This document shows, piece by piece, positions 121 to 44,397 of a stretch of DNA of 64,000 nucleotides. Source of the DNA: a virus (lineage: Duplodnaviria > Heunggongvirae > Uroviricota > Caudoviricetes); IMG/VR virus record IMGVR_UViG_3300021255_002784, positions 24,416-88,415 of that record; one strand, 5' to 3'. The notes under the pieces were generated by a model, which saw only the letters and a program-made list of their open reading frames with translations, was not told the origin of the DNA and made no database searches. Each line of letters starts with the position of its first letter. Position 1 is the stretch's first letter. The position numbers and the translations under genes are program-made.

Positions 121-438
121 ATGTTAAGTATAGCCAAGCTAAAACTTCAACTGGATATCAGTAGGGCACTCAGAAGTGACAAAGTGGCAAAAGTGTTCGA
201 AAATGCACTACTGAGCACCTTTCCAGTTGTCAATGACGAAAACGGAGCTCATGATATGGCAGAATCATTCGGTAAGTTATGTGCCAACGGATTATCTTCA
301 GCACTAGCTCAACCTATCACCGATGCAGTAGATGATTATGTCAAAGAGATAGGATTGCAGATCACGCCTACTATGTTGATGAGTCCGACCGGACCAGTGA
401 CAGGATCCATCAACCCAATAGATGTTAAAGTACTATGA
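121..438 (+). CDS. hypothetical protein (105 aa)
   Basis: ORF on + strand whose stop overlaps the next start (ATGA); no recognisable motif. Confidence 0.4.
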   Translation: MLSIAKLKLQLDISRALRSDKVAKVFENALLSTFPVVNDENGAHDMAESFGKLCANGLSSALAQPITDAVDDYVKEIGLQITPTMLMSPTGPVTGSINPIDVKVL

Positions 439-8742: not shown

Positions 8743-10317
8743 ATGAGAAAAGTGATAAAACGAGACGGATCCAAGGAGATCTTCAATTTTAGTAAGATAT
8801 ACAATGCTGTTGATGCTGCATTCGTACACTGTAATCGAACGATGCCTGAAGGTTTCAAATCTGCATTGGAGAGTACATTCAAAAACGAGAACCCCCGCGA
8901 CATAAATGGTAAACTCCTTCCACTGACGGTAGAGTCTATTCAGGATCGAGTCCAGAACCTGCTGTTCAAACACGGATATCAAGATGTATATAACGAGTAC
9001 CTTATATATCGATATGAGCACAAGGTGACACGTGAATACGTCAAGTCCCAACGGGATTTCATCGACAGGTACATCCAATCAGATAACAATGCCAACGCCA
9101 CTATAGACGACAATTCTAATGTGGCCAGTAAAAACATAGGTACACTCAATAGTGAGATCCATAAACCATGGAACATCAAAATCTCTCGGGGCATGGTTAT
9201 GGACATGCTCAAGATACTGTATCCGGACTTCGATCACAAACAGTACATCAGGGATCTGGCCCATCATATAATATATAAACATGACGAGTCTACTTATGCC
9301 GGGCCTATCGCACCGTACTGTTGTAGTATTTCTATGTATCCATTTATTACTGGTGGTATCAAACATATCGGTGGTCTGTCAGCCTGCCCGCACAGTCTGA
9401 TGTCTTTCTGTGGTATATATATCAATCTGATATTCGCCATCAGTGGTCAGTTTGCAGGCGCTGTAGCTACGTCAGAGTTCTTCGTATACTTCGATTATTT
9501 CGCCCGAAAAGAATGGGGTGACGATTATTATAAGCGCACAGACGAACTCGTTGGAAAACGCACTTTACACAAGCTTATTCACCAGTATTTTCAACAGGTG
9601 GTGTACAGTATCAACCAGCCCGCAGCAGCACGAGGTATGCAGAGTGCTTTTGTGAACTTCTCATACTTCGACAAACCATTCTTTGATGGTATGTTTGGCA
9701 ACTTCATGTTCCCGGACGGAACCAAAGCATGCTGGGAGAGTGTTAACTGGCTACAACGCGATTTTATGCAGTGGTTCAATGAAGAGCGCTTACGCTGTAT
9801 GTTAACGTTCCCTGTAGAGTCTTTTGCTCTGGTATACAAGGACGGACACTTCGTGGATCAGGACAGCGCGGATTTCGTAGCGGCTGAGTATGCTCGAGGT
9901 CATTCCTTCTTTACGTACATATCTGATTCGGTGGATTCACTTTCTTCGTGTTGTTTTAATGGGGATGAAATTATCAAAATTAAAGATAAAAACGGTAATA
10001 ATTTTTCCACATCAATATCGGATTTTGTCAATTCAATAAGTTCTTCAGTTTGCCCATCAGGGAAAAAGATTGGGGAAAAAACATATTTTATAGATTCTTT
10101 TAATAAAAATGGTGGTTGCAAAGAGGTTCAGATTACGGGGGTTTTGAAAAAACAATACTGTGGCAAAATGTATAAGATTTGCGTGGATGAAAATAAATAC
10201 ATCACAGTAACACCAGACCATATTTTAATGGTGAGAAATCGAAAGGGGAATATTCTTTCCCTCCCTGCAGAAGATGTTGTAAGAAACCCAGATGACTATG
10301 AACTTGTTGTGGATTGA
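8743..10317 (+). CDS. nrdD: anaerobic ribonucleoside-triphosphate reductase NrdD, N-terminal fragment fused to the N-terminal half of an intein (IntN)
   Basis: ATP-cone at the N-terminus (MRKVIKRDGSKEIFNFSKIYNAVDAA); conserved NrdD SSCC(RL) motif split after the first Cys; from 9952 intein block A (CFNGDEIIKI) and block B (ITVTPDHILMV); stop after ~121 intein residues. Confidence 0.8.
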   Translation: MRKVIKRDGSKEIFNFSKIYNAVDAAFVHCNRTMPEGFKSALESTFKNENPRDINGKLLPLTVESIQDRVQNLLFKHGYQDVYNEYLIYRYEHKVTREYVKSQRDFIDRYIQSDNNANATIDDNSNVASKNIGTLNSEIHKPWNIKISRGMVMDMLKILYPDFDHKQYIRDLAHHIIYKHDESTYAGPIAPYCCSISMYPFITGGIKHIGGLSACPHSLMSFCGIYINLIFAISGQFAGAVATSEFFVYFDYFARKEWGDDYYKRTDELVGKRTLHKLIHQYFQQVVYSINQPAAARGMQSAFVNFSYFDKPFFDGMFGNFMFPDGTKACWESVNWLQRDFMQWFNEERLRCMLTFPVESFALVYKDGHFVDQDSADFVAAEYARGHSFFTYISDSVDSLSSCCFNGDEIIKIKDKNGNNFSTSISDFVNSISSSVCPSGKKIGEKTYFIDSFNKNGGCKEVQITGVLKKQYCGKMYKICVDENKYITVTPDHILMVRNRKGNILSLPAEDVVRNPDDYELVVD

Positions 10318-34680: not shown

Positions 34681-34766
34681 ACCGCAATGGCGGAATTGGT
34701 AGACGCACCAGACTTAAAATCTGATGGACCAAAAGGTCCGTGTGGGTTCGAGTCCCACTTGCGGCA
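34681..34766 (+). tRNA. tRNA-Leu (anticodon TAA), type II
   Basis: cloverleaf: TG + GCG/CGC D-stem, anticodon loop CTTAAAA, variable arm hairpin, GTGGG-TTCGAGT-CCCAC T-arm; A1.C72 mismatch. Confidence 0.7.
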
Positions 34767-35126
34767 CAGTGTAAAAAAATTAAAAAAAAATATAAAGATC
34801 ACTAAAATTTAGAAAAGTTTTCTTATATATTATTGTAGAAGGACAGAAGCAAAAGTTCTAATACAAAACGATCTTTGACATATTGGAAATAGCAAAAAAG
34901 AAACTACATTGCTAAGGAAGGATAGTAAAACTATCCTGACAAAGCAATCGCAATACAAACAGGCGTAACGCTACTGTTTCTCGTGAGAGTTCAGTTACGA
35001 AAGGATGGGTCGAAAGACTTTCTTATCACATCCCGGACCACTTAGATCGATGAGGTGGACATTACGTAACGCTTTGACACAACGAGCGTATTTCTAGAAA
35101 TAGAATTTTGGAGTTGAGTTATCAAT

Positions 35127-35201
35127 AGGGTAGTGGCTCAGTCCGGTTAGAGCACTTGATTTGGGATCAAGGGGTCGCAGGTTCGAATCCTGTCTACCCT
35201 A
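35127..35201 (+). tRNA. tRNA-Pro (TGG)
   Basis: canonical cloverleaf, anticodon loop TTTGGGA. Confidence 0.85.
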
Positions 35202-35367
35202 CATACAGTTTGACATTGCGACGAAGAGCAAATCACGCAAAGTTACTTGAACAGTTCGGTGGCAGATATTGGAGATATATTGGTGAGACGGACGAAGACC
35301 AAGAAGGATGGTGATCGTAGCGCTTGAAATAACTCTAACGTATGGTAATGAGAATGTCAATCTTTTA

Positions 35368-35439
35368 GGGGAGTTAGCTCAATGGTAGAGCAATTGGCCG
35401 TTAACCAATAGGTTGTAGGTTCGAATCCTGCACTCCCCG
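35368..35439 (+). tRNA. tRNA-Asn (GTT)
   Basis: canonical cloverleaf, loop CCGTTAA. Confidence 0.85.
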
Positions 35440-35598
35440 CAAGTGGCGGGCGATTGATAGTTCTTACCGTCCAAGTTATAAGAACTATACAAAGAGCGAA
35501 ACGCAGGAGGCTCCATGAGAGGTGACTTTAAGCAAGACTCTCAAATCCAAAAACTTTATCTCGTAGAAGTTCCGGACACGGTTTTCATATGAGAGGTA

Positions 35599-35675
35599 CG
35601 TCTTTAAGCTTTGCACGGAGTGAAGTAGTATTGGGCTCTGTCCGGTAGAACGAGGTTCGAATCCTTGAAAGACGG
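35599..35675 (+). tRNA. tRNA-like element, possibly Arg (TCT), non-canonical
   Basis: 7-bp acceptor CGTCTTT/AAAGACG, good T-arm (CGAGG-TTCGAAT-CCTTG), D-stem GCTT/AAGT, anticodon arm with two G.U pairs and loop GCTCTGT (C33, G37). Confidence 0.35.
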
Positions 35676-35684
35676 CAATCGTAT

Positions 35685-35757
35685 TGGGAGATCTTCTAAA
35701 CGGTTAGGAAATCGGTCTGATACACCGGCAATCCGAGTTCGAGTCTCGGCCTCCCAA
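35685..35757 (+). tRNA. tRNA-Ile (GAT)
   Basis: cloverleaf, loop CTGATAC; A7.C66 mismatch. Confidence 0.75.
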
Positions 35758-35774
35758 CATAGTAAATACACTAA

Positions 35775-35847
35775 TGCCCTCTAGTATATCGAATTAGTAC
35801 ATCAGATTTTGATTCTGAGGGGCGAGGTTTGACTCCTCGGAGGGCAA
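35775..35847 (+). tRNA. tRNA-Gln (TTG)
   Basis: cloverleaf, loop TTTTGAT, U1-A72 pair typical of Gln; D-loop lacks GG. Confidence 0.75.
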
Positions 35848-36180
35848 CTTACAAATAAAACAATTTATGTGCAGCGCCTGACGACACATATCTTAGGAAT
35901 TGTAGGAACAACAATTTGGCAAATGTTGGGCACGGATAGTTGAAGGAAAACAACTTAAATAAACCAGAGTGCAGCGCCGAATGTGCCGTTGGGGATGGGG
36001 ACACACCTCTATAAATGAACAAAATGAATTATCTCCACCAACAAATCAACATGTCATTACGAACCAGCATAAGGTACGTACAATGTTCGTTTCTGAAAAG
36101 ATATAGGACTCTCAAAAAGACCAAGCTCCAGTTTGGCCACTGACTTGGGTGAGGAGAGGAAAATGAATGTTGATTTATAT

Positions 36181-36251
36181 TGCCTTTTGGTGTAATGGCA
36201 GCACATAGGGTTCTGGTCCCTAGAATCCGGGTTCGAGTCCTGGAGAGGCAA
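36181..36251 (+). tRNA. tRNA-Gln (CTG)
   Basis: cloverleaf, loop TTCTGGT, U1-A72. Confidence 0.75.
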
Positions 36252-36371
36252 CAAAAGCAATAAGTTGATGGTTCAAATCCATCTCGCGCGGAAGCGTTCA
36301 GTCAGACTTCCAAGTGATAGTTGGCCTGAAATTGGTCTTCGAAGATAAATGGTGTAAAACGTATTGCTCAC

Positions 36372-36455
36372 GGGAGAGCGCCAACGATGGTGAGTTGGGA
36401 TGGACTGTAAATCCATTGTCTTTTGACTCAGGGGGTTCGAATCCCTCCTCTCCCA
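36372..36455 (+). tRNA. tRNA-Tyr (GTA), type II
   Basis: loop CTGTAAA, long variable arm. Confidence 0.8.
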
Positions 36456-36483
36456 CATATGAAGATACTGGAATAAAATATAT

Positions 36484-36559
36484 ACCTCGGTAGGCAAATG
36501 TTGGTAAAGCCGATAGACTTAGGATCTGTTGTTTGTGGGTTCGAATCCCACTCGGGGTA
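36484..36559 (+). tRNA. tRNA with anticodon TAG (Leu by the code) but a type-I (short variable arm) structure
   Basis: acceptor ACCTCGG/TCGGGGT with two G.U pairs, loop CTTAGGA, 5-nt variable region, A73. Confidence 0.55.
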
Positions 36560-36582
36560 CAACAGATGAAATAGTATTGCAA

Positions 36583-36657
36583 GACTCCGTAGCTCAGTTG
36601 GATGAGAGCAACGCACTTTTAATGCGTGGGTCCTGGGTTCAAGTCCCAGCGGGGTCA
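36583..36657 (+). tRNA. tRNA-Lys (TTT)
   Basis: canonical, loop CTTTTAA. Confidence 0.85.
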
Positions 36658-36869
36658 CAATTATAACTAAAGTTAGAGGAAGAAGTCTTTTAGTTGTTCT
36701 CAGGAGAACGGCGGTTCGTTGAGGTACTGGGTCTGATAATGAAAAGGTTCCTCGTCAAAGGTTTAGGTCATAACCTTAGGATAATAACCCATAACTACTT
36801 TGAATGACCAGAGACTGTTATGGCAAAGGGGTCTTGACTAAAAGAGCGCATCACAAATCTAACTTATTT

Positions 36870-36942
36870 GGACCGGTAGCTCAGTTGGTAGAGCGCAGGC
36901 CTGAAGAGCCTGGCGTCGGCGGTTCGATCCCGTCCTGGTCCG
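36870..36942 (+). tRNA. tRNA-Phe (GAA)
   Basis: canonical, loop CTGAAGA. Confidence 0.85.
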
Positions 36943-36975
36943 CAATGAATAATGTGGCAGAGTGAAACGGATACG

Positions 36976-37051
36976 AGCTTTGTAATTATTGCTCAGAAAT
37001 CATTGGGGGCCCATAACCCACAGATAGCAGGTTCGACTCCTGCAGCCGCAA
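36976..37051 (+). tRNA. degenerate tRNA-like element (Met-like anticodon loop CCCATAA; no matching 5' acceptor)
   Basis: good T-arm GCAGG-TTCGACT-CCTGC and anticodon-like hairpin, but no complementary 5' acceptor or D-stem found. Confidence 0.25.
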
Positions 37052-37071
37052 CAAAATAAAAATATATAAAT

Positions 37072-37145
37072 GGTGTCATAGTTCAGCTGATTAGAATGCC
37101 TGACTGTCGATCAGGAGGTCGCGGGTTTGAGTCCCGCTGGCACCG
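37072..37145 (+). tRNA. tRNA-Asp (GTC)
   Basis: canonical, loop CTGTCGA. Confidence 0.85.
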
Positions 37146-37155
37146 CTAATATATG

Positions 37156-37227
37156 GGCCATGTAGTGTAACGGCTAGCACTTCACATTTGCAATGTGACG
37201 GAGGGGTTCGAATCCCACATGTGTCCA
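37156..37227 (+). tRNA. tRNA-Ala (TGC)-like element with defective T-stem/acceptor; ends in TCCA
   Basis: perfect anticodon arm TCACA-TTTGCAA-TGTGA, D-arm GTGT/GCAC, but T-stem and acceptor pairing are poor. Confidence 0.3.
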
Positions 37228-37237
37228 CAAACATCAT

Positions 37238-37319
37238 ACCCTGGTGGCGGAATTGGTAGACGCGCTTGACTCAAAATCAGGTCCGAAAGGGTGTGTGGGT
37301 TCGAGTCCTACCTAGGGTA
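37238..37319 (+). tRNA. tRNA-Leu (CAA), type II
   Basis: TG + GCG D-stem, loop CTCAAAA, variable hairpin, GTGGG-TTCGAGT-CCTAC. Confidence 0.8.
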
Positions 37320-37338
37320 CACGTAAAATAATATAAGT

Positions 37339-37662
37339 ATGAGAAAAATTATCAATGCGTTCGCAGTCTTGTTTATATTGATTGGATTAAATGCATGTCA
37401 GGTACAGAAAATCAATCCAAAATGGACACAGGATCCGCGAGTAGAAGTAGTAAATGAACAGACAGTCATATTCCGGGATGTGATTAGGATTGAAATTATT
37501 TCAAACAATCCAGCGCAAATCACATACGTTTACGATTTGAAACATGGTAGACCGGTCAAGACAGCACGAAGTTCATTTGAAGTAAACGTAAAACACGGCG
37601 ACTATCTTATTCAGTCGAATCGCAAAATCACCAAAACACAGTACGAGGTCGTTATTGAATGA
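37339..37662 (+). CDS. small secreted/lipoprotein-like protein (107 aa) embedded in the tRNA array
   Basis: signal-peptide-like N-terminus MRKIINAFAVLFILIGLNAC (lipobox-like LNAC). Confidence 0.4.
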   Translation: MRKIINAFAVLFILIGLNACQVQKINPKWTQDPRVEVVNEQTVIFRDVIRIEIISNNPAQITYVYDLKHGRPVKTARSSFEVNVKHGDYLIQSNRKITKTQYEVVIE

Positions 37663-37901
37663 CCTCTGCTCATGAGGCTATTATCACAATTGGTTAATAT
37701 GGTGGGTTCGAATCCCTCTAGTCCCACAACCGGTAAAAAGACATATGTCTAGCGCAAAGCCGAGTGTCCTGCGCGATATAAAAAGGACTGCCAAGTCATC
37801 TTGAGGAGCTATAGATGAGCTACACGCTGTTGTGGTAAGTGAACAGAAAAGCTTTAGGGGTTTCAAAATTTGTAAATCTTTGTGTTGATGAGAAGCAACT
37901 A

Positions 37902-37971
37902 GTCTCGGTAGCTCAGTTGGTTAGAGCTCTCCGCGGAGGAGAGGTCGCTGGTTCAAGTCCAGTCTGAGACG
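37902..37971 (+). tRNA. tRNA-like gene with truncated anticodon arm (70 nt; possible anticodon CGG)
   Basis: perfect acceptor, D-arm (GCTC-AGTTGGTTA-GAGC) and T-arm, but only 19 nt between D and T arms (CTCTCC-GCGGA-GGAGAG, 5-nt loop). Confidence 0.4.
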
Positions 37972-37975
37972 ATGT

Positions 37976-38048
37976 GCCCGGATAGCTCAGTTGGTAGAGC
38001 AACTGATTTGTAATCAGTCGGTCGTCAGTTCGAGTCTGACCCCGGGCT
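37976..38048 (+). tRNA. tRNA-Thr (TGT)
   Basis: canonical, loop TTTGTAA; A7.C66. Confidence 0.8.
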
Positions 38049-38141
38049 CGCATGCATTTCCAGGATTCAATTGGAATCGAATTTCATATTTGGCGGGTGA
38101 CTAAAATTGATTATGGTGTTAATACTGGCAGAACACCCCAT

Positions 38142-38215
38142 GCAGGAATAGCTCAGTTGGCCAGAGCGGGACCTTGCCAAGGTTCAGGTCGCGAGTTCGA
38201 GTCTCGTTTCCTGCT
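38142..38215 (+). tRNA. tRNA-Gly (GCC)
   Basis: canonical, loop TTGCCAA. Confidence 0.85.
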
Positions 38216-38430
38216 CCAGGATATAGCCCAGATACGGGTCTGATGAAGACATTCGTTAGTAGTTGCGGGACGCCAATACGAAACAGTTTGTTGGATTCTA
38301 AAACATGAAGTTTATGGAGACTGTGGTGGTTGCAAACTCCGCAGTGGAAATGATGATGTATGTAAATAGAGTGCTCCCTGTGGAGGGGAGAGGTCGAAGA
38401 ATAACCCGTAAAAACTTCTGTCCTGACCAT

Positions 38431-38502
38431 GACCAATGAGTCCAGGCGGTTAGGCACCAATCTGCAAAATTGGGTAGCGGGGTTCAACTCCCTGATTGGT
38501 CA
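38431..38502 (+). tRNA. tRNA-Cys (GCA)
   Basis: loop CTGCAAA, T-loop TTCAACT. Confidence 0.75.
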
Positions 38503-38730
38503 CAAAATGGGTTCAAGCTGTACATAGGACCCTCCGGTAATTCCAGGTATGTATGTTTAGACCGGACGCTCGGGAGCTTATAGTCCTGCGATAGTGCGAC
38601 TAAATTACGGGACATGGTGTACGGTGCATATCTAGGGGGCTAGAAGGTGAGGGGTAAATAATGCTAGTTGCGAATAACCTCTTTATCAGCAATGGTACAG
38701 GTTCGACTCCTGATGTCTCGACAAATATAT

Positions 38731-38804
38731 GGCCTTATCGTCTAACCTGCGCAGGACGTTACTCTCTCAAGGTAAAAATCCGAGTTCGATCCTCGGTGAG
38801 GCTA
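38731..38804 (+). tRNA. tRNA-Glu (CTC)-like
   Basis: acceptor with two G.U pairs, loop CTCTCAA, D-loop without GG, T-arm CCGAG-TTCGATC-CTCGG. Confidence 0.5.
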
Positions 38805-38936
38805 CTATTGCAACTGGATTGGAAAACAGAGCACCATTCTAATCTCATGAGAGTTAGTAGGCAGGCATAGAAGATTCAGACTCTCAGACCCCGAGATAGC
38901 TCAGCTGGTTAGAGTCCAGTTCTCGGGACGCATTAT

Positions 38937-39011
38937 TGGTTCTGAGCTCGGCTGGTGCGTAGCGGCGGTCTCATAAACCGAGGGACGTGGGTTCAAATCC
39001 CACAGAGCCAA
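38937..39011 (+). tRNA. tRNA-Met (CAT), elongator-type
   Basis: loop CTCATAA, U1-A72 paired, large D-loop. Confidence 0.7.
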
Positions 39012-39086
39012 CACACAAAAAATTAAATGATCCATTAAAGATCAGAAGAGAGCTTCTATATATTATTATAGAAGAACGAAACATAC

Positions 39087-39159
39087 TGGGGTATAGTTCA
39101 GCTGGTAGAATGTTGGTCTCCAAAACCGAAGGTCGCGGGTTCGAATCCTGCTGCCCCTG
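39087..39159 (+). tRNA. tRNA-Trp (CCA)
   Basis: loop CTCCAAA, 3' CGCCCCT-like acceptor as in E. coli Trp; U1.U72 mismatch. Confidence 0.75.
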
Positions 39160-39264
39160 CTAAAGTTCGAAAGTCCTTAACGAAAGCGGTGTGATCAACA
39201 TGTCAACCTTAAACAAGTTGAAGACGCAGTGAAAATCTGACATCGTAAGAGGGAAGAACTTTTT

Positions 39265-39345
39265 ACTCCCATGCTGGAAATGGTAGACAGGCCAGACTAA
39301 GGATCTGGTGTCTTCGACGTGCGGGTTCGAGTCCCGCTGGGAGTA
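39265..39345 (+). tRNA. type-II tRNA with anticodon AAG (Leu by the code; unusual A34)
   Basis: TG + CTG/CAG D-stem as in the other Leu tRNAs, loop CTAAGGA, variable hairpin GTC-TTCG-GAC, perfect acceptor ACTCCCA/TGGGAGT. Confidence 0.6.
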
Positions 39346-39404
39346 CGTAAAACGGTAATCTAGTATACATTTGAAAAAGTTAGACTACCATTTTATTATA
39401 GATC

Positions 39405-39878
39405 ATGAGAAAAGATTTAATTGGAAGAACCCAGGATATTCTTAAATGGGTTGCTGAAGGATGGTCATTTACAGAAATGTACAAGGAACTCGGTTGTTCC
39501 CGAGATGCACTTCATTATTTCTTGAAAACCAGAAAGATCGAATATAAAGGTAATCAGAGTAGAAAAGGGAGAAAAATAGATCCTAAAAGAAAAACGGCTC
39601 TTCAACTTATAGATGGAATTGAAAATGGGCTCAGTATCGGTAATTCTACATTAAGGGACAGACTCATCCAAGACAAGCTCAAAGAATATAAGTGTGAAGT
39701 ATGTGGGGCGAATGAATGGTTCGGAAAACCCATACCGTTAGAGTTGCATCACAAGGATTTCAATCATCACAACTCTAAATTAGAAAATCTTCAAATACTA
39801 TGTCCAAATTGCCACGCATATATTCATAAATACAATATAATCACTCCTATGTTGGAAATGGTAGACAGGCCAGACTAA
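39405..39878 (+). CDS. HNH homing endonuclease (HTH + HNH) inserted in the tRNA array
   Basis: C-terminal HNH motif CEVCGANEW...LELHHKDFNHHNSKLENLQILCPNCH; the last 9 codons are encoded by a duplicated tRNA 5' half. Confidence 0.7.
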   Translation: MRKDLIGRTQDILKWVAEGWSFTEMYKELGCSRDALHYFLKTRKIEYKGNQSRKGRKIDPKRKTALQLIDGIENGLSIGNSTLRDRLIQDKLKEYKCEVCGANEWFGKPIPLELHHKDFNHHNSKLENLQILCPNCHAYIHKYNIITPMLEMVDRPD

Positions 39879-39923
39879 GGAGTTGGTGTCTTTGACGTGA
39901 GGGTTCGAGTCCCTCTTTGGGCA
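39844..39923 (+). pseudogene. chimeric/pseudo tRNA (5' half copied from the 39265 tRNA, 3' half from a different type-II tRNA)
   Basis: 33-nt near-identity to the 39265 tRNA up to the anticodon loop, then divergent 3' half with compensatory T-stem (GAGGG/CCCTC) and acceptor 3' TTTGGGC that cannot pair with the 5' end. Confidence 0.5.
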
Positions 39924-40286
39924 CAGGTCTTTGACATATTGATACCGCAAGAAAAGAATAAGTTCAAAGATTCAACACGTTTTTATGCGATTGAGTAGGC
40001 AGTTGGAATAATAAGCGTCATAAGATGAGGGAGTCGACGTTGAAATCGAATTGTTACCAGAGCAGCACTTACTGGGAGTATTAACAAAGTCTTGAAAGCT
40101 TCGAGATTTCATTGATGAACATAGCCCGAAGTCAACAAAACGAGAACGATTCAACGGGTTCGAATCCGATGAATCCAACACAAACCGGATGGTGCAACCG
40201 GATAGTCACGGGATTGAAACTTACTGAGTATGTTCCGCTTCAGAGTACTTCGGAGAACCCCTATATCTTTTAAGCGGTATCTTTTT

Positions 40287-40358
40287 GCCCCGATAGTTCA
40301 ACGGATAGAACATGTGGCTACGGACCACAGGATCCGGGTTCGAATCCTGGTCGGGGTA
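40287..40358 (+). tRNA. tRNA-Arg (ACG)
   Basis: canonical, loop CTACGGA. Confidence 0.85.
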
Positions 40359-40366
40359 CTTTTTAT

Positions 40367-40439
40367 GCGGGAGTAGCTCAGCTGGTAGAGCATCTGCCCT
40401 CCAAGCAGAGGGTCGCGAGTTCGAGTCTCGTCTCCCGCT
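40367..40439 (+). tRNA. tRNA-Gly (TCC)
   Basis: canonical arms; loop CCTCCAA (C33). Confidence 0.7.
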
Positions 40440-40514
40440 CAATCCTTCCAGGTTTAAGTTGAAAGAGCGGCCTGGTAGCTATGTTCTGGAATAGCAAAAA
40501 ACTCATCGCTCCAC

Positions 40515-40541
40515 AAGGATTTTGAAGGTTGAATCCTTTTT
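40515..40541 (+). terminator. rho-independent terminator-like hairpin inside the tRNA array
   Basis: AAGGATT-TTGAAGGTTG-AATCCTT + TTTTTT. Confidence 0.5.
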
Positions 40542-40544
40542 TAT

Positions 40545-40618
40545 GGTGTCTGTAGCTCAGCTGGTAGAGTGGAGGATTGTGGTTCCTAAGGTCGTGGGTC
40601 CGAGTCCCACCTGACACC
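40545..40618 (+). tRNA. tRNA-His (GTG) with encoded G-1
   Basis: loop TTGTGGT, extra 5' G opposite C73, T-loop TCCGAGT. Confidence 0.75.
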
Positions 40619-40638
40619 CATACACAAAACTATTCCAA

Positions 40639-41032
40639 TATGAATTTCAAAACGATAACACATCGTCAATCATGGAAAGATGCTGAAAGTATCTATATCA
40701 TGGAGAGTACAGGCGGCGCAATGATCAGAATCACCAAATACACTGATAATGAAGCCTATCTGTTATCTGACTTGTACGTCAATCCGGTATTGAGAAAACG
40801 TGGACTGGGTACTCTGATGATTGAAAGTGCTATCAAGGAGTGTCGTACTCATGCGCAGCTGAATGACATTGAGCCATGTGTCGTTGAGATGGCAGTTAAT
40901 GATCATTCCGAGAAGTTCTGTGCTGAATGGTATCAACGAATGGGGTTCGTTCTTAATAGAAGTGAAGCACCGATCGATACAACATTCGACAATGAACTTG
41001 AGTGGTGTGATATCTATAGACTCGTTGTCTGA
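40639..41032 (+). CDS. GNAT-family N-acetyltransferase
   Basis: motif A-like VNPVLRKRGLGTLMIESAI; the ORF as listed starts inside tRNA-His, so the start was moved to MNFKT. Confidence 0.55.
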
Positions 41033-41040
41033 TGTTTACA

Positions 41041-41115
41041 AGACTCCGTAACGGAGTCCCGCTGCACGGTCTCCGTGACTGCGTTAATGAAATCCGGAGG
41101 CTTTCAAGACTCCGT
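41041..41115 (+). repeat. inverted copy of the intergenic repeat cassette plus a GC-rich hairpin sub-element, abutting a tRNA 5' end
   Basis: reverse complement reads CGGAGTCTTGAAAGCCTCCGGATTTCATTAACGCAGTCACGGAGACCGTGCAGCGGGACTCCGTTA; palindrome GACTCCGTAACGGAGTC. Confidence 0.6.
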
Positions 41116-41180
41116 AGCTCAGTGTATAGAGCAGCAGTTTTCTAAACTGCCGGTCCTGGGTTAGAGTCCCAGCGGAGCCA
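41108..41180 (+). tRNA. tRNA-Arg (TCT) lacking G18G19 and C56
   Basis: loop TTTCTAA, D-loop AGTGTATA, T-loop TTAGAGT, A2.C71 mismatch; the first 15 nt are identical to tRNA-Lys. Confidence 0.6.
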
Positions 41181-41327
41181 CATTTTCTATTATTTTTTTC
41201 TTCATCAACGAAGTCCTGAAAAACTTTAGTTTTTTCACTAAATATTTTTCGTGTTTTCATATATTTATACATAACGCAGTCATAAATTCCTACGGGATTT
41301 CATTAACACTCAAAACAATATAGATAT

Positions 41328-41684
41328 ATGAAGCACATTCTTTGGATAGATGACCTGAGGGATCCACATTCTCCGAAGTGGAAAGAGTATCTCGATTATG
41401 CCGCAGAAGAGTTCTTAGATGTTCCTCTGAATGAGTGTACAGTAAGCTGGGCACGGAGCAAGAACGAGTTTATCCAGCATCTCATTCTTGAGACCTGGCC
41501 GGATCTAGTTTGTTTCGATCACGATCTCGGACTTGGTCCTACAGGGTACGACTGTGCCAAGTACTTAGTAGATATGTGCATGGAGACAGGCAATCCTCTT
41601 CCAGAGTTTGTATCCCAGTCGTCTAATCCAGTCGGGCGAGAAGACATCATTCGTTTACTTGAAAACTATAGGAAACACTTATAA
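41328..41684 (+). CDS. hypothetical protein (118 aa)
   Basis: ORF after a promoter box. Confidence 0.45.
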   Translation: MKHILWIDDLRDPHSPKWKEYLDYAAEEFLDVPLNECTVSWARSKNEFIQHLILETWPDLVCFDHDLGLGPTGYDCAKYLVDMCMETGNPLPEFVSQSSNPVGREDIIRLLENYRKHL

Positions 41685-41694
41685 TAACATTTCA

Positions 41695-42609
41695 ATGAAA
41701 AGACAAATCATTCTATTACAAGGACCGCCTCGAAGTGGTAAGACGACTTGGGCGAAAACACACTGGGACACAGCACCTCTAGATACCTACGTATATATGA
41801 TCAGCACCCACGACCTGAGCTGGAAGTCCACAGATAGGGGTTATATTATAAATACTCTGGACACTGTTCTAGAGACAGAGCGTAAAGCTATCATGGAGCG
41901 CCTCAGTTATTATGATAGAGACTGGGACATCATTGTCGACGCTTACAACGCCAATCCTAAGCGGGTTCAGGAGTTCGAAAAACTCGCGAACAAGATGGGT
42001 GCAGAATTGGTAATCAAGCAGTTCTATATTCCTTACTCTGAAAGTTACAAACGCAACAAAGAGGTTGGAGTCCATTCCAAAGAATACATTCCTCGGGACG
42101 TTTTGGCCGGGTTCTATGATACGTACTACCACGAATGGTACCGGGACGAGCTCACAGACAAGAGAGTCATCAGACAACCGGAACCTACTCTTCCTCCTTG
42201 CATCATCTGCGACCTGGATGCTACACTAGCCTTACATCAGGGACGGGAACCATTCGAATGGGACCGACTCCTGACTGACAAGATCGACCCTCGCTTGCGA
42301 GATCTGTTGAACTTCCATATGACGTCCGGCACCAAGGTGTTCTTTCTAACAGGTCGCACCCAACGCGCACGACTGGATACCTTGATGTGGTTGCAAAATC
42401 CGAAACAGGGTCTGTGTGATGGGTGGGAACTGATCACTCGCAGTCAAGGAGATTTCTCTTCGGGTGATGTATACAAACTCAAGATGTACGAGCAACTCAT
42501 ACAAGGCAAGTACAATGTACTGTGCGTCTTCGAAGACAGTAACAAGTGTGTGAAAATGTGGAGAGAACTCGGTCTCTTGACTTGCCAGGTAGCAAATTCA
42601 GAATACTAA
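41695..42609 (+). CDS. polynucleotide 5'-kinase/3'-phosphatase (T4 Pnk/PseT-like)
   Basis: N-terminal P-loop GPPRSGKTT kinase domain; C-terminal HAD phosphatase with IICDLDATLA (DxDxT). Confidence 0.65.
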   Translation: MKRQIILLQGPPRSGKTTWAKTHWDTAPLDTYVYMISTHDLSWKSTDRGYIINTLDTVLETERKAIMERLSYYDRDWDIIVDAYNANPKRVQEFEKLANKMGAELVIKQFYIPYSESYKRNKEVGVHSKEYIPRDVLAGFYDTYYHEWYRDELTDKRVIRQPEPTLPPCIICDLDATLALHQGREPFEWDRLLTDKIDPRLRDLLNFHMTSGTKVFFLTGRTQRARLDTLMWLQNPKQGLCDGWELITRSQGDFSSGDVYKLKMYEQLIQGKYNVLCVFEDSNKCVKMWRELGLLTCQVANSEY

Positions 42610-42610
42610 T

Positions 42611-42841
42611 ATGCTTGATATGACACCCGAAGAGTTCGAAGCCGAAGTGCAAGGTACCATAGGTCTCATCTGCGACTGTGTTCCGTACGACACACCTAAC
42701 TATCACGAAGAGGTTCGTAAGCTGGCTGAAGACATAGTACGCGAACTACACGATCCGGATTCGGAAACCAATCAAAAAATTGCAAGCGAACAGGTCGAAC
42801 ACGATGATATTATGTTCGATGCCGGATACATAGACTTCTAA
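42611..42841 (+). CDS. hypothetical acidic protein (76 aa)
   Basis: ORF. Confidence 0.4.
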   Translation: MLDMTPEEFEAEVQGTIGLICDCVPYDTPNYHEEVRKLAEDIVRELHDPDSETNQKIASEQVEHDDIMFDAGYIDF

Positions 42842-42963
42842 TATATGACCGAACAAGAACTCGCACTCTATCGTAAGTGTACTCGAAAGAAAAGATGTAC
42901 CAGATACGACTACGAGTCTGTCCATGAATATGATAACGAAACCAACGAAAACGATTATATACT

Positions 42964-43476
42964 ATGACAAAAGAAGAACAACGCACAAACATCCTTAATA
43001 TGCTGAGAGACAACAAGATCAACGTCAACGATGCCCTGTTGATGCTCAACCGATTAGATGAAGAGGACTCACCTGTCGGCGAAGGTGTTCCTGTAACAGC
43101 CAAAACCCAAAAATCTTATCAGGACCTGATTGAGGATATCGTGGACCAAGTCATATCTGGCATGGACATGGATCGCGTATATCAGATTATGAAAGATATG
43201 GATTGGAACTATGTGAGTAAACCTGTGACATACGATGATATCGTCGAATGTGCCAAAGATAATGTTCGACACACTCTGGAATATCTGGTGAATAATAGAA
43301 TCAAAACAGGCGACGCATCAGCCATGTCTGGTACGGGAGGGTTCTTGTGCCGAGCCTGGGTGGACGAGGATGACGAAGACAACATCCAGGTGGAACTCGG
43401 GTTCCAACCGATAACTGGGATCGGAGACGGTCATTTAGATAAGTTGGTCGCAGCCAAAATAGAAATGGCGTCGTAA
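42964..43476 (+). CDS. hypothetical protein (170 aa)
   Basis: ORF. Confidence 0.45.
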   Translation: MTKEEQRTNILNMLRDNKINVNDALLMLNRLDEEDSPVGEGVPVTAKTQKSYQDLIEDIVDQVISGMDMDRVYQIMKDMDWNYVSKPVTYDDIVECAKDNVRHTLEYLVNNRIKTGDASAMSGTGGFLCRAWVDEDDEDNIQVELGFQPITGIGDGHLDKLVAAKIEMAS

Positions 43477-43683
43477 AAAAGATCCAAACAACAAATACGC
43501 CAGGCCTAAAATCTTCGATCATTTCTATATATTATAATTGAGGATGATACCGAAGGATAGTGCCCTATAGTTTTTCTACTAAAATTAGATGTTCTTTCTT
43601 ATCTATTATATAGAAGAACAACAAATACGAGATATGCGACTTGTGCTTGCACATGAGGGACCCTATATCACGTATTTGTTATA

Positions 43684-43773
43684 TGGAGAGTTGTCAGAGT
43701 CCGGTTTATTGTGCGAATCTTGAAAATTCGTGGGCGTGATGAGCGCTCCGGGGGTTCGAATCCCTCACTCTCC
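43684..43773 (+). tRNA. tRNA-Ser (TGA), type II, with encoded CCA
   Basis: loop CTTGAAA, long variable arm, 3' ACTCTCC-T-CCA. Confidence 0.8.
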
Positions 43774-43786
43774 TCCAGAGTTATAT

Positions 43787-43874
43787 TGGTGAGTTGGCCG
43801 AGTGGCTTAAGGCGCTGGTTTGCTAAACCAGTGATCTCGAAAAGAGATCCGTAGGTTCGAATCCTGCACTCACC
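43787..43874 (+). tRNA. tRNA-Ser (GCT), type II
   Basis: loop TTGCTAA, variable hairpin GATCTC-GAAAA-GAGATC. Confidence 0.8.
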
Positions 43875-44215
43875 GCACCAGTTACTTGAGCTGGTCACCA
43901 GAAGAGTAACAGCCTTTGGACAAAGACCAATGTCGCGAAGGAGTGGTTGGAGAGGTTCTAAATACAAACCCGAGAAACCTGAAAAGGCGAAGAACGCAGT
44001 TTCCTCAAATTAGGTACCATAAGTTAGATAACACCTTAAAGCCTAATGAACATCGGTAATAATATCAATTCCACCGATAATCAAAATGGAGTGGTCGCGG
44101 CTGAGTCGAGAGAAAGCTGAGATTTATTAGAGAGCTCATATAATATCTCTTTTCGGTACGAACTTACCGTTAGTGGATGATTACCACGGGTTATACAGCC
44201 CTATCGTCTAGCGGA

Positions 44216-44288
44216 CCAGGACGCCTCTCTTTCACGGAGGAAACACGAGTTCGAATCTCGTTGGGGCTACTTGTGGGATGAGTAGCAG
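44216..44288 (+). tRNA. tRNA-Glu (TTC)
   Basis: loop CTTTCAC, canonical arms. Confidence 0.8.
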
Positions 44289-44290
44289 TG

Positions 44291-44397
44291 GTAACAAGGT
44301 CCTGAATGACCCTTGGGTCTTCGATAGCTCGCCAGGCTCATAACCTGAAGGTCGGTGGTTCGATCCCACCTCCCGCAACTACATTTTTAGAGGAGAC
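44291..44397 (+). tRNA. tRNA-Met (CAT)-like with a ~30-nt insertion in the D-arm region (or a pseudo-tRNA)
   Basis: 3' two-thirds resemble bacterial initiator/elongator Met (TAGCTCG-CCAGG-CTCATAA-CCTGA-AGGTC-GGTGG-TTCGATC-CCACC-TCCCGCA-A); the only complementary 5' acceptor (TGTGGGA) lies 107 nt upstream. Confidence 0.35.

What the first reader, a model, noticed from the sequence alone, without database searches (positions are those of the whole stretch)
39265..39923. HNH homing-endonuclease gene inserted in the tRNA array, flanked by a 33-nt direct repeat of a tRNA 5' half, producing a chimeric downstream tRNA
The 5' half of the type-II tRNA at 39265 (ATGCTGGAAATGGTAGACAGGCCAGACTAAGGA) is repeated, with one mismatch, at 39850-39882. 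That second copy encodes the last nine residues (MLEMVDRPD*) of the HNH endonuclease ORF 39405-39878. Downstream, the second copy continues into a different tRNA 3' half. That half has compensatory T-stem changes (GCGGG/CCCGC to GAGGG/CCCTC) and a different acceptor 3' strand (TTTGGGC) that cannot pair with the duplicated 5' end. This looks like the footprint of homing-endonuclease invasion into a tRNA gene with target duplication. It also leaves a recombinogenic direct repeat that could excise the endonuclease gene and regenerate a single tRNA.
Basis: seen in the sequence. Interest (0 to 1): 0.7.

Follow-up and report, generated by a model that had tools for sequence, protein, structure and literature searches.

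The report
Homing endonuclease beside hybrid tRNA-Leu pseudogene
A selfish nuclease gene from a family that specialises in leucine-tRNA genes sits between a working tRNA-Leu and a broken hybrid tRNA-Leu in a large rumen phage, and the hybrid is most likely the repair scar of the nuclease cutting that tRNA gene.

Summary
The 33-mer occurs twice (39271-39303 and, with one mismatch, 39849-39881; chance expectation 0). The repeat is larger than reported: the whole 81-nt tRNA-Leu(AAG) is repeated at 39843-39923 (70/81 identical). Copy 1 is a good tRNA (51.6 bits). Copy 2 fails Rfam (22.4 bits, cutoff 29). All four of its broken base pairs join its 5' half to its 3' half. Its 3' end matches a common GCCCARA-type tRNA-Leu, so it is a hybrid pseudogene.

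ORF 39405-39878 is an intact HTH+HNH protein, a homologue of T5/BF23 F-TflIV. Its last 11 codons and its stop codon lie inside copy 2.

In 57 dereplicated related loci, 24 of 30 tRNAs abutting the gene's 3' end are tRNA-Leu(UAG). A sister subfamily is encoded inside group I introns that split tRNA-Leu(UAA) at position 34/35. The hybrid junction in copy 2 falls in that same anticodon loop.

Best reading: a free-standing tRNA-Leu-targeting homing endonuclease, with copy 2 as a repair scar, not a target-site duplication. Deletion between the repeats would leave a dead tRNA, not a restored one. This is a new member of a known kind.

The parts
39265..39345 (+). Copy 1: functional type-II tRNA-Leu(AAG). 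Acceptor stem ACTCCCA/TGGGAGT, discriminator A.
   Evidence: ARAGORN. Rfam tRNA 51.6 bits against a cutoff of 29. All 23 cloverleaf pairs are standard, cloverleaf energy -27.6 kcal/mol. It is the only phage tRNA for CTY codons, which make up 29% of Leu codons in 20 large ORFs.
39347..39404 (+). 58-nt spacer that belongs to the endonuclease unit. It carries a promoter-like site, TTGAAA-17-TATTAT (39371-39399).
   Evidence: The spacer aligns with the tRNA-to-HNH spacers of the closest homologues, L012 and L093. Promoter-like match 10/12; this is a consensus match only, and such sites are not enriched over shuffles.
39405..39878 (+). Free-standing HNH homing-endonuclease gene (157 aa). N-terminal NarL/LuxR-like HTH at about residues 5-45. 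HNH/zinc-finger nuclease at about residues 92-143. Residues 147-157 are read-through into copy 2.
   Evidence: phrog_10822 E=1.5e-22. 40% identity to BF23 hegA / F-TflIV. It retains all columns that are invariant or at least 90% conserved in the alignment, including H115, H116, N128, C97/C100/C133/C136 and H137. HTH match to NarL, E=0.004. Homologues end 3-8 residues after CHxxxHxY.
39843..39881 (+). 5' part of copy 2: acceptor 5' strand, D arm, anticodon-stem 5' strand and anticodon loop. It differs from copy 1 at 2 of 39 positions. 39853-39881 is a perfect 29-nt match to 39275-39303. It also encodes TPMLEMVDRPD and the stop codon.
39882..39923 (+). 3' part of copy 2: anticodon-stem 3' strand GTTGG, variable arm, T arm GAGGG/CCCTC, acceptor 3' strand TTTGGGC and discriminator A. 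It derives from a different, GCCCARA-type tRNA-Leu.
   Evidence: It differs from copy 1 at 9 of 42 positions. Its 3' end GGTTCGAGTCCCTCTTTGGGCA fits the search pattern GGTTCRANTCCCTCTTTGGGCA, which hit 35 bacterial contigs. Of the 33 complete genes, 32 are type-II tRNA-Leu starting GCCCA(A/G)(A/G).
39843..39923 (+). Copy 2 as a whole: a hybrid tRNA-Leu pseudogene. ARAGORN miscalls 39851-39924 as tRNA-Pro(tgg).
   Evidence: Rfam tRNA 22.4 bits, below the cutoff of 29. It is the only one of the 29 ARAGORN calls in the array that falls below threshold. Non-pairs are 1:80 A-C, 5:76 C-T, 6:75 T-T and 32:40 A-G, all between the two halves. Cloverleaf energy is -9.2 kcal/mol. The 'Pro' fold needs 3 G-U pairs and 1 mismatch in the acceptor stem.
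39874..39880 (+). Anticodon loop CTAAGGA of copy 2. It holds the HNH stop codon (39876-39878). The hybrid junction must lie in or at the edge of this loop. Position 34/35 (39877/39878) is where sister HNH genes sit inside tRNA-Leu group I introns.
   Evidence: Pairing logic. Intron-split tRNA-Leu(UAA) loci. Position 34/35 as given in PMC13011429.

Best explanation
What it is (shown). The window comes from a large uncultured rumen phage. At 39347-39842 it carries a free-standing homing-endonuclease unit: a 58-nt spacer with a promoter-like site, then an intact HTH+HNH gene. The protein belongs to an HNH family, related to T5/BF23 F-TflIV, that lives next to tRNA-Leu genes in unrelated phages. 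In a sister subfamily the gene sits inside group I introns that interrupt tRNA-Leu(UAA) between anticodon positions 34 and 35. In the window the unit lies between two tRNA-Leu genes. The upstream gene is the phage's working tRNA-Leu(AAG). The downstream gene is a hybrid: positions 1-39 are copy-1-like, and positions 40-81 come from a GCCCARA-type tRNA-Leu.

How it arose (inferred). The endonuclease nicks or cuts tRNA-Leu DNA at or near the anticodon loop. The break in the downstream tRNA-Leu was then repaired by recombination. The template was either the neighbouring tRNA-Leu(AAG) or an endonuclease-carrying donor genome. The stretch between the endonuclease gene and the cut (the tRNA 5' half) was co-converted. 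The crossover resolved right at the cut, so the resident 3' half was kept. The two halves do not match in the acceptor and anticodon stems, so the product is a dead tRNA.

Consequences.
- The HNH reading frame now runs 11 codons into the pseudogene and stops at a TAA that overlaps the anticodon (shown).
- Any deletion between the two repeats would leave only a dead tRNA. This should select against loss of the endonuclease gene (inferred).
For: The protein is an intact HNH endonuclease:
- phrog_10822 E=1.5e-22.
- 40% identity to F-TflIV/hegA.
- All conserved catalytic and zinc-binding residues are kept.
- NarL-like HTH at the N terminus.

Copy 2 is a hybrid, not a decayed duplicate:
- All 4 broken pairs join the 5' half to the 3' half. 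The D, variable and T stems are intact, and the T stem carries a compensatory C-G to A-T change.
- Its 3' end is an exact match to the T-arm and acceptor design of GCCCARA-type tRNA-Leu genes: 32 of 33 complete hits.
- A model with GCCCAAA and CCAAC restored pairs perfectly, at -23.2 kcal/mol.
- It scores 22.4 bits in Rfam, against 32.8-73.3 bits for all other tRNAs of the array.
- Among the distinct tRNA-Leu genes next to homologous HNH genes, all have 0-1 acceptor mismatches except one with 2.

The family is tied to tRNA-Leu:
- Among 57 dereplicated IMG/VR loci, 24 of 30 tRNAs abutting the stop codon are tRNA-Leu(UAG) (p=5e-11). 17 of 33 upstream neighbours are tRNA-Leu. 38 of 57 loci have a tRNA-Leu adjacent.
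- Nine further distinct loci give a bona fide tRNA-Leu(UAA) after removal in silico of a 713-768-nt insertion that contains the HNH ORF, located between U34 and A35. This is the classical intron site (PMC13011429).

The family is mobile:
- crAss001 and cr112_1 have tRNA-Phe directly followed by tRNA-Leu.
- cr126_1 has tRNA-Phe, HNH, then a different tRNA-Leu.
- L073 has tRNA-Phe, the resident tRNA-Leu, HNH, then that same different tRNA-Leu, which is the window's layout.

Other loci carry similar tRNA scars:
- Orphan 5' fragments of tRNA-Leu (acceptor strand plus D arm) lie upstream of the HNH gene in L031, L047/L050 and L001/L015-19. L067 has a tRNA-Leu split around a missing anticodon arm.
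- Orphan Leu D-arm motifs: 21 in 17 kb upstream of the HNH genes, against 11 in 173 kb elsewhere. Many of the 21 are the 5' exons of the intron-split genes.

Precedents:
- T4 SegB cuts inside tRNA genes and its ORF overlaps the next tRNA (PMC2330249).
- Free-standing endonucleases co-convert the DNA between their gene and a distant cut.
- One-sided repair gives junctions at limited homology (PMC2988022).
Against: - No cleavage data exist for this protein or for any close relative. That the target is the anticodon-loop region is inferred from the intron-encoded cousins (about 43% identity) and from where the scars lie.
- No relative of this phage was found with an empty site or with an intact GCCCAAA...TTTGGGC tRNA-Leu at this position. 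The direction and the template of the conversion therefore cannot be settled.
- The uneven spread of differences between the halves (2/39 vs 9/42) is only marginal on its own (Fisher p=0.05).
- The two 5' differences in copy 2 (T6, T10) are shared with the tRNA-Leu that abuts homologue P0006. The 5' half may therefore have arrived with the endonuclease gene and not from copy 1.
- The array shows strain-level mosaicism with a breakpoint at a tRNA border. Ordinary recombination between tRNA genes could therefore also produce a chimera.
Confidence: 0.6

Rival explanations
1. The chimera was made by ordinary recombination or gene conversion between tRNA genes of the array, or between co-infecting strains. 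The HNH enzyme had no role and merely happens to sit between two tandem tRNA-Leu genes.
For: - tRNA arrays often hold tandem tRNA-Leu genes (L013, L063, L094, L102).
- Contig L004 is 100% identical to the window from 36869 onward but carries different tRNA-Lys and tRNA-Leu genes upstream. The switch falls 1 nt before tRNA-Phe. So recombination at tRNA genes does occur here.
Against: - The junction falls within the 7-8 nt anticodon loop. That is the homing site of the intron-encoded relatives.
- The defective gene is the one fused to the endonuclease ORF.
- Several independent loci of the family carry tRNA-Leu fragments next to the HNH gene.
Confidence: 0.2
2. A duplication of the copy-1 tRNA followed by decay of the second copy. 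The duplication could be a target-site-like duplication on insertion. It could also be the collapsed remnant of a SegB-style tandem amplification of a [tRNA + endonuclease] unit.
For: - In phage T6, SegB drives tandem amplification of a 718-bp tRNA-Tyr + segB unit. Its junction joins the 3' end of segB to the 5' end of the tRNA (PMC13096335). That is the same topology as HNH joined to copy 2.
- The two copies share a perfect 29-nt block.
Against: - The differences are not random decay. The T stem changed by a compensatory pair.
- The acceptor 3' strand plus T arm exactly matches a natural GCCCARA-type tRNA-Leu design.
- No trace of a second spacer or HNH copy follows copy 2.
- The HNH ORF is full length, not truncated at the junction.
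- The repeat borders coincide with tRNA borders, and the upstream copy is complete, so nothing was inserted 'into' a tRNA.
Confidence: 0.12
3. The downstream element is a functional tRNA: either ARAGORN's tRNA-Pro(UGG) at 39851-39924, or a mismatch-tolerant tRNA-Leu.
For: - ARAGORN reports it.
- The T arm, variable arm and D arm are intact.
Against: - Rfam gives 22.4 bits, below the cutoff of 29. It is the only call in the array below threshold.
- The Leu fold has three non-pairs in the acceptor stem. The Pro fold needs 3 G-U pairs plus a G-G mismatch in the acceptor stem and a poor D arm.
- A good tRNA-Pro(UGG) already exists at 35127-35202 (70.6 bits).
- No GCCCAAA strand lies upstream. The only near match, GTCCAAA at 39802, is the Cys-Pro-Asn codons of the HNH motif, 34 nt out of register.
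Confidence: 0.04

Closest known systems
F-TflIV (hegA) and F-TflI/II, HNH endonucleases of the tRNA gene region of phages T5 and BF23
   Same: Sequence homologue: 40% identity over residues 1-138, E=6e-26. Both are HNH enzymes. Both are free-standing genes inside a phage tRNA cluster.
   Different: hegA is longer (227 aa). In BF23 it follows tRNA-Ser and tRNA-Ile, not tRNA-Leu. No flanking tRNA repeat or hybrid tRNA is annotated there.
SegB of phages T4 and T6 (GIY-YIG free-standing homing endonuclease in the tRNA cluster)
   Same: It cuts inside tRNA genes. Its ORF end overlaps the next tRNA, so tRNA processing is proposed to limit its expression. It drives preferential inheritance of the tRNA region and tandem amplification of tRNA+endonuclease units (PMC2330249, PMC13096335).
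   Different: It belongs to an unrelated nuclease family. It recognises the universal T-psi-C motif and shows no isotype preference. The present family is tied to tRNA-Leu.
HNH-encoding group I introns in tRNA-Leu(UAA) at position 34/35 (reported in Bacteroidota, PMC13011429; ORF-less versions are classical in cyanobacteria and plastids)
   Same: The intron-borne HNH proteins found here in viral contigs are homologues of the window protein, at about 38-44% identity. The target gene and the site (the anticodon loop of tRNA-Leu) match the hybrid junction in the window.
   Different: The window gene is free-standing. Both tRNA copies are contiguous. No group I core is detectable (no Intron_gpI match at E<=10 in 39150-40300). 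The flanking spacer is only 58 nt.
Free-standing endonucleases with co-conversion from a distant cut (T4 SegG/gene 32, MobE/nrdB) and one-sided illegitimate double-strand-break repair
   Same: The DNA between the endonuclease gene and the cut is copied along with the gene, and junctions can form at limited homology (review PMC2988022). This is the pattern inferred for the 5' half of copy 2.
   Different: Those cases involve protein-coding genes and usually leave a working gene. Here the product is a non-functional hybrid tRNA, tolerated because a working paralogue sits 0.5 kb upstream.

Membership tests
HNH (His-Me finger) homing endonuclease, F-TflIV-like / phrog_10822 | HNH motif with catalytic His and Asn, plus two CxxC zinc-binding pairs | tested here: met
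   H115, H116, N128, C100 and C133 are invariant, and C97, C136 and H137 are at least 90% conserved, across 42 homologues. The window protein has all of them. phrog_10822 E=1.5e-22. Pfam HNH scores only 19.1 bits against a cutoff of 21.4.
HNH (His-Me finger) homing endonuclease, F-TflIV-like / phrog_10822 | Significant similarity to an experimentally characterised member | tested here: met
   BF23 hegA, annotated 'H-N-H endonuclease F-TflIV': 40.3% identity over residues 1-138, E=6e-26.
HNH (His-Me finger) homing endonuclease, F-TflIV-like / phrog_10822 | Presence/absence polymorphism at an otherwise conserved site (mobility) | tested here: inconclusive
   Met for the family in crAss-like phages: crAss001 and cr112_1 lack the gene, cr126_1 and L073 have it. 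For the window phage itself, every contig found carries the gene and is 100% identical at the locus. No close relative was found.
HNH (His-Me finger) homing endonuclease, F-TflIV-like / phrog_10822 | Site-specific cleavage of the endonuclease-less allele | not testable with these tools
   This needs purified protein and DNA substrates.
Group I intron-encoded endonuclease in tRNA-Leu | The tRNA is split into a 5' exon and a 3' exon that flank the ORF | tested here: not met
   Copy 1 is complete upstream of the ORF. The two halves of copy 2 are contiguous downstream of it. Sister loci do show the split.
Group I intron-encoded endonuclease in tRNA-Leu | Group I catalytic core around the ORF | tested here: not met
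   No Intron_gpI match at E<=10 in 39150-40300. The ORF is flanked by only 58 nt upstream and by none downstream before copy 2.
Functional tRNA (copy 2, 39843-39923) | Score above the Rfam tRNA gathering threshold and a paired 7-bp acceptor stem | tested here: not met
   22.4 bits against a cutoff of 29. Three of 7 acceptor pairs and 1 of 5 anticodon-stem pairs are non-standard.
Transposition-type target-site duplication | Short direct repeats that directly abut both ends of the inserted element and derive from a single pre-insertion site | tested here: not met
   The upstream repeat is followed by its own tRNA 3' half and a 58-nt spacer before the ORF. The repeated unit is a whole tRNA. The 3' half of copy 2 has a different origin.
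SegB-type segmental amplification of a [tRNA + endonuclease] unit | Tandem repetition of the unit, including a second (possibly truncated) endonuclease copy | tested here: not met
   No DNA or protein similarity to the spacer or HNH gene in 39925-40290. The HNH ORF is not truncated.

The most novel reading that the evidence does not exclude
This HNH family may be a single lineage of tRNA-Leu-specific homing endonucleases that has switched repeatedly between three lifestyles in unrelated phages (crAss-like, jumbo and others):
- encoded inside a group I intron at position 34/35 of tRNA-Leu(UAA);
- free-standing and abutting tRNA-Leu(UAG), travelling with its own replacement tRNA-Leu;
- free-standing downstream of a tRNA-Leu.

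In this reading tRNA-derived sequence serves as portable homology arms. The window's hybrid pseudo-tRNA would then be a natural snapshot of one co-conversion tract, and it would map the cleavage site to the anticodon loop. It would also lock the selfish gene in place, because any repeat-mediated deletion destroys the phage's only tRNA-Leu(AAG).
Probability: 0.3. Interest if true: 0.65.

Novelty: new member of a known kind. Interest (0 to 1): 0.5.

Why it matters
Homing endonucleases in phage tRNA clusters are known from T4/T6 SegB and T5 F-Tfl. Recent work shows they can reshape tRNA gene dosage during the arms race with host defences.

This locus adds an HNH family with a clear isotype preference for tRNA-Leu, and it appears in both intron-encoded and free-standing forms. 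That combination bears on how mobile introns and free-standing endonucleases exchange targets.

The locus also shows a concrete cost of such elements, a tRNA gene turned into a hybrid pseudogene. And it gives a way to infer an endonuclease's cut site from sequence alone.

There is a practical point for annotation. ARAGORN called the pseudogene 'tRNA-Pro', and with the settings used here (no intron search) it did not report the intron-split tRNA-Leu genes of sister loci.

Tried and rejected
Searches for close relatives or an empty site all came up empty:
- megablast of 38900-40450 against GenBank phages: no match.
- Exact tRNA patterns in IMG/VR: none.
- Protein-based locus search with the single HNH protein: none confirmed.
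- A metagenome scan with a degenerate variable-arm + T-arm pattern returned only unrelated tRNA-Leu genes and not even the source contig. It also showed that the variable arm GTCTTYGAC is common and therefore not diagnostic.
- Exact-protein look-ups of the HNH protein and of the neighbouring acetyltransferase found only contigs of the same phage, all carrying the HNH gene.

Ideas considered and rejected:
- An upstream GCCCAAA strand for copy 2. The only near match, GTCCAAA at 39802, is the Cys-Pro-Asn codons of the HNH motif and is out of register.
- A remnant of a second HNH copy after copy 2.
- tRNA remnants downstream of the HNH gene in loci where the gene follows a tRNA-Leu. Rfam found none.
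- The ARAGORN tRNA-Pro call.

One correction to my own working view. I first counted about 23 loci as 'not tRNA-Leu-associated'. A motif scan showed that many of them are HNH genes inside intron-split tRNA-Leu(UAA) genes.

Structure prediction and fold search were not run, because the sequence evidence for the HNH fold was sufficient.
Full report
**Setting.** The window is part of a large uncultured phage. Its portal protein is 42% identical to that of a 462-kb metagenomic phage, and more distantly related to those of Lak megaphages and Sphingomonas phage PAU. It encodes NrdD, a DNA ligase, a polynucleotide kinase and several homing-endonuclease-like ORFs. ARAGORN finds 29 tRNA genes between 34.6 and 44.3 kb. 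The exact HNH protein occurs only on contigs of the same phage from sheep-rumen-type samples, and these are 100% identical to the window at this locus.

**Checking the observation.** The 33-mer lies at 39271-39303. With one mismatch it lies at 39849-39881. There are no other matches at up to 3 mismatches, and none in 100 shuffles. ORF 39405-39878 ends ...ITPMLEMVDRPD*. Codons 147-157 and the stop codon lie in the second copy. The similarity is wider than reported. It starts at tRNA position 1 (39843) and runs through the T arm, with 70 of 81 positions identical. It stops exactly at both tRNA borders. The locus therefore holds two tRNA-Leu-type genes with the ORF between them, not a tRNA gene with an insertion.

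**The two copies.**
- Copy 1 (39265-39345) is a canonical type-II tRNA-Leu(AAG). It scores 51.6 bits in Rfam, and all 23 cloverleaf pairs are standard.
- Copy 2 (39843-39923) scores 22.4 bits, below the cutoff of 29. It is the only one of the 29 ARAGORN calls in the array that fails; the others score 32.8-73.3 bits.
- ARAGORN's 'tRNA-Pro(tgg)' fold of 39851-39924 needs three G-U pairs and a mismatch in the acceptor stem. A good tRNA-Pro(UGG) already exists elsewhere in the array.
- Copy 2 has four non-standard pairs: 1:80, 5:76 and 6:75 in the acceptor stem, and 32:40 in the anticodon stem. Each joins a base of the 5' half (position 39 or lower) to a base of the 3' half (position 40 or higher).
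- The D, variable and T stems, each lying within one half, are intact. The T stem differs from copy 1 by a compensatory C-G to A-T change.
- The 3' end of copy 2 fits the pattern GGTTCRANTCCCTCTTTGGGCA. That pattern hit 35 bacterial contigs. Of the 33 complete genes, 32 are type-II tRNA-Leu that begin GCCCA(A/G)(A/G). The Bacteroidia examples also share the D arm of the window copies.
- Putting GCCCAAA and CCAAC back into copy 2 gives a perfectly paired cloverleaf.

Copy 2 is therefore a hybrid of a copy-1-like 5' half and the 3' half of a GCCCARA-type tRNA-Leu. The join lies within or at the edge of the anticodon loop. No alternative 5' acceptor strand exists upstream.

**The protein.** It matches HNH endonuclease families in PHROGs (phrog_10822, E=1.5e-22). 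It is 40% identical to BF23 hegA, annotated F-TflIV. It keeps the conserved His, Asn and Cys residues shared with 41 homologues. It has a NarL-type helix-turn-helix domain at the N terminus. Homologues end 3-8 residues after the CHxxxHxY motif. The last 11 residues here are therefore read-through into the tRNA-like DNA.

**The family and tRNA-Leu.**
- The closest GenBank hits lie in tRNA arrays directly upstream of a tRNA-Leu(UAG).
- A profile-based scan of IMG/VR gave 80 loci, which dereplicate to 57 clusters. In these, 24 of the 30 tRNAs that abut or overlap the stop codon are tRNA-Leu(UAG). The background frequency of tRNA-Leu is 23% (p=5e-11). Also, 17 of 33 tRNAs within 220 nt upstream are tRNA-Leu.
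- The closest homologues (59% and 56% identity) follow a tRNA after a 58-81-nt spacer that aligns with the window's spacer.
- A motif scan showed that many loci without an annotated neighbour carry an orphan tRNA-Leu 5' part about 170-250 nt upstream of the ORF, and an orphan T arm about 90-130 nt downstream.
- Their sequences show a tRNA-Leu(UAA) interrupted between U34 and A35 by 713-768 nt that contain the HNH ORF and group I-like core motifs. Joining the exons in silico gave an ARAGORN tRNA-Leu(taa) in nine distinct loci.
- Position 34/35 is the classical tRNA-Leu group I intron site. HNH genes in such introns were recently reported for Bacteroidota (PMC13011429).
- Rfam's group I model gave only one weak hit. 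'Group I intron' therefore rests on position and motifs, not on a model score.

**Mobility and scars elsewhere.**
- In crAss-like phages, crAss001 and cr112_1 have tRNA-Phe directly followed by tRNA-Leu. cr126_1 has tRNA-Phe, the HNH gene, and then a different tRNA-Leu allele.
- Contig L073 has tRNA-Phe, the resident tRNA-Leu, the HNH gene and then that same different allele. This is the window's layout. The gene is therefore mobile and can travel with its abutting tRNA-Leu.
- Orphan 5' fragments of tRNA-Leu (acceptor strand plus D arm) lie upstream of the gene in L031 (19 nt perfect), L047/L050 (20 nt perfect, with a different acceptor strand) and L001/L015-19 (15 of 17).
- In L067/L068 a tRNA-Leu is split around a missing anticodon arm, and the gene is flanked by a direct repeat of a tRNA-like element: about 85 nt by eye, of which BLAST aligned 55 nt.
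- All these junctions lie between the D loop and the variable arm.
- The distinct tRNA-Leu genes next to homologous HNH genes have 0-1 acceptor mismatches, with one exception at 2. Copy 2, with three non-pairs, is the most defective.

**Mechanism.** The facts above are shown. The mechanism is inferred. The enzyme cuts or nicks tRNA-Leu DNA near the anticodon loop, and the break in the downstream gene was repaired by recombination. The 5' half, which lies between the endonuclease gene and the cut, was co-converted, and the crossover resolved at the cut. This is what free-standing endonucleases with a cut outside their own gene do, and one-sided repair with limited homology is documented in T4 (PMC2988022). 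T4/T6 SegB gives the closest functional parallel. It cuts in tRNA genes, its ORF overlaps the next tRNA, and it drives co-inheritance and amplification of tRNA genes (PMC2330249, PMC13096335).

I cannot tell whether the template was copy 1 in the same or a sister genome, or a donor genome's own abutting tRNA-Leu. The two 5' differences in copy 2 are shared with the tRNA-Leu next to homologue P0006, which hints at the second option.

There is no target-site duplication. Deletion between the repeats would not regenerate a tRNA: every crossover product pairs ACTCCCA with TTTGGGC. CTT and CTC make up 29% of Leu codons in 20 large ORFs, and copy 1 is the only phage tRNA that reads them. Such a deletion should therefore be selected against.

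**Limits.**
- There is no biochemical evidence for this protein or its close relatives.
- No relative of this phage was found with an empty site or an ancestral site.
- The uneven spread of differences between the halves is only marginally significant on its own (p=0.05).
- The array is mosaic between strains, so endonuclease-independent recombination remains a real rival.

**Verdict.** The element is a new member of a known kind: a free-standing homing endonuclease in a phage tRNA cluster. It belongs to a family with an unusually clear link to tRNA-Leu, and the locus carries an instructive hybrid-tRNA scar.

Noticed in passing
window 36405-36869; L004 1-464: Contig L004, from the same sample set, is 100% identical to the window from 36869 onward. 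Upstream it carries a different tRNA-Lys(ttt) (84% identity) and a different type-II tRNA-Leu(tag). The switch falls 1 nt before tRNA-Phe. This is either strain-level mosaicism of the tRNA array or a chimeric assembly.
   Followed up: partly
L022, L024, L026, L029, L030, L033, L037-L039, L045, L046, L051, L089 (about 1250-2110 in each): Viral contigs carry tRNA-Leu(UAA) genes split at position 34/35 by 713-768-nt insertions that encode a homologous HNH protein (probable group I introns). ARAGORN, as run here without intron search, did not report them. Rfam's group I model gave only one weak hit (23 bits, in L033).
   Followed up: partly
L067/L068 1329-1445, 1958-1999, 2091-2178: The HNH gene lies between a 5' fragment and a 3' fragment of a tRNA-Leu whose anticodon arm is missing. 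It is also flanked by a direct repeat of a tRNA-like element (about 85 nt by eye; 55 nt at 94.5% in BLAST). The anticodon loops of the two repeats read CTTAGAA and CTAAGAA.
   Followed up: partly
L073 vs L002 (L073 1699-3384 = L002 2732-4416): Two crAss-like phages share the C-terminal half of the HNH gene, its abutting tRNA-Leu and the downstream DNA at 98% identity. Their N-terminal (DNA-binding) halves are unrelated. A recombination breakpoint therefore lies inside the endonuclease gene, which suggests domain swapping.
   Followed up: no
window 34681-44270 (tRNA array): Eleven of the 28 good tRNAs start with A or T at position 1 (for example ACTCCCA, ACCTCGG, TGGGGTA, TGCCCTC). Only two encode a 3' CCA. 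This bias in the acceptor ends is unusual.
   Followed up: no
window 36484-36560; L012 2868-2942: tRNA-Leu(tag) genes of only 75-77 nt with a short variable region. They have a class-I shape, although tRNA-Leu is normally class II. Rfam scores are good (56-60 bits).
   Followed up: no
window 37156-37228 and 44323-44372: tRNA-Ala(tgc) scores only 32.8 bits, and the acceptor ends are left out of the Rfam alignment (model positions 4-67). A sub-threshold tRNA-like fragment (25.1 bits, model positions 6-65) follows tRNA-Glu(ttc). Both may be further damaged or remnant tRNAs.
   Followed up: no
window 34872-34886 and 39928-39942: The motif (A/G)TCTTTGACATATTG, which contains TTGACA, occurs after tRNA-Leu(taa) and directly after copy 2. 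Both sites give weak matches to the 5' end of Rfam DUF2693 RNA. They may be array-internal promoters.
   Followed up: partly
window 39802-39809: GTCCAAAT, the Cys-Pro-Asn codons of the HNH CPNCH motif, matches 7 of 8 bases of the 5' end (GCCCAAAT) of the GCCCARA-type tRNA-Leu that supplied the 3' half of copy 2. In phage T6, microhomology between the 3' end of segB and the 5' end of a tRNA mediates amplification. The match here is probably coincidence.
   Followed up: no
window 435-1952, 6923-8611, 8743-10317: There are further homing-endonuclease-like ORFs (phrog_1314, phrog_3339). One lies directly upstream of an NrdD-like gene whose PHROG match covers only part of the profile. This may be a split or invaded nrdD.
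   Followed up: no
L022 1-221 and 2121-2233; L024 and L089 2122-2250; L046 2106-2175: ROOL, RAGATH-33 and skipping-rope RNAs score above Rfam thresholds right next to the intron-split tRNA-Leu genes in these viral contigs.
   Followed up: no
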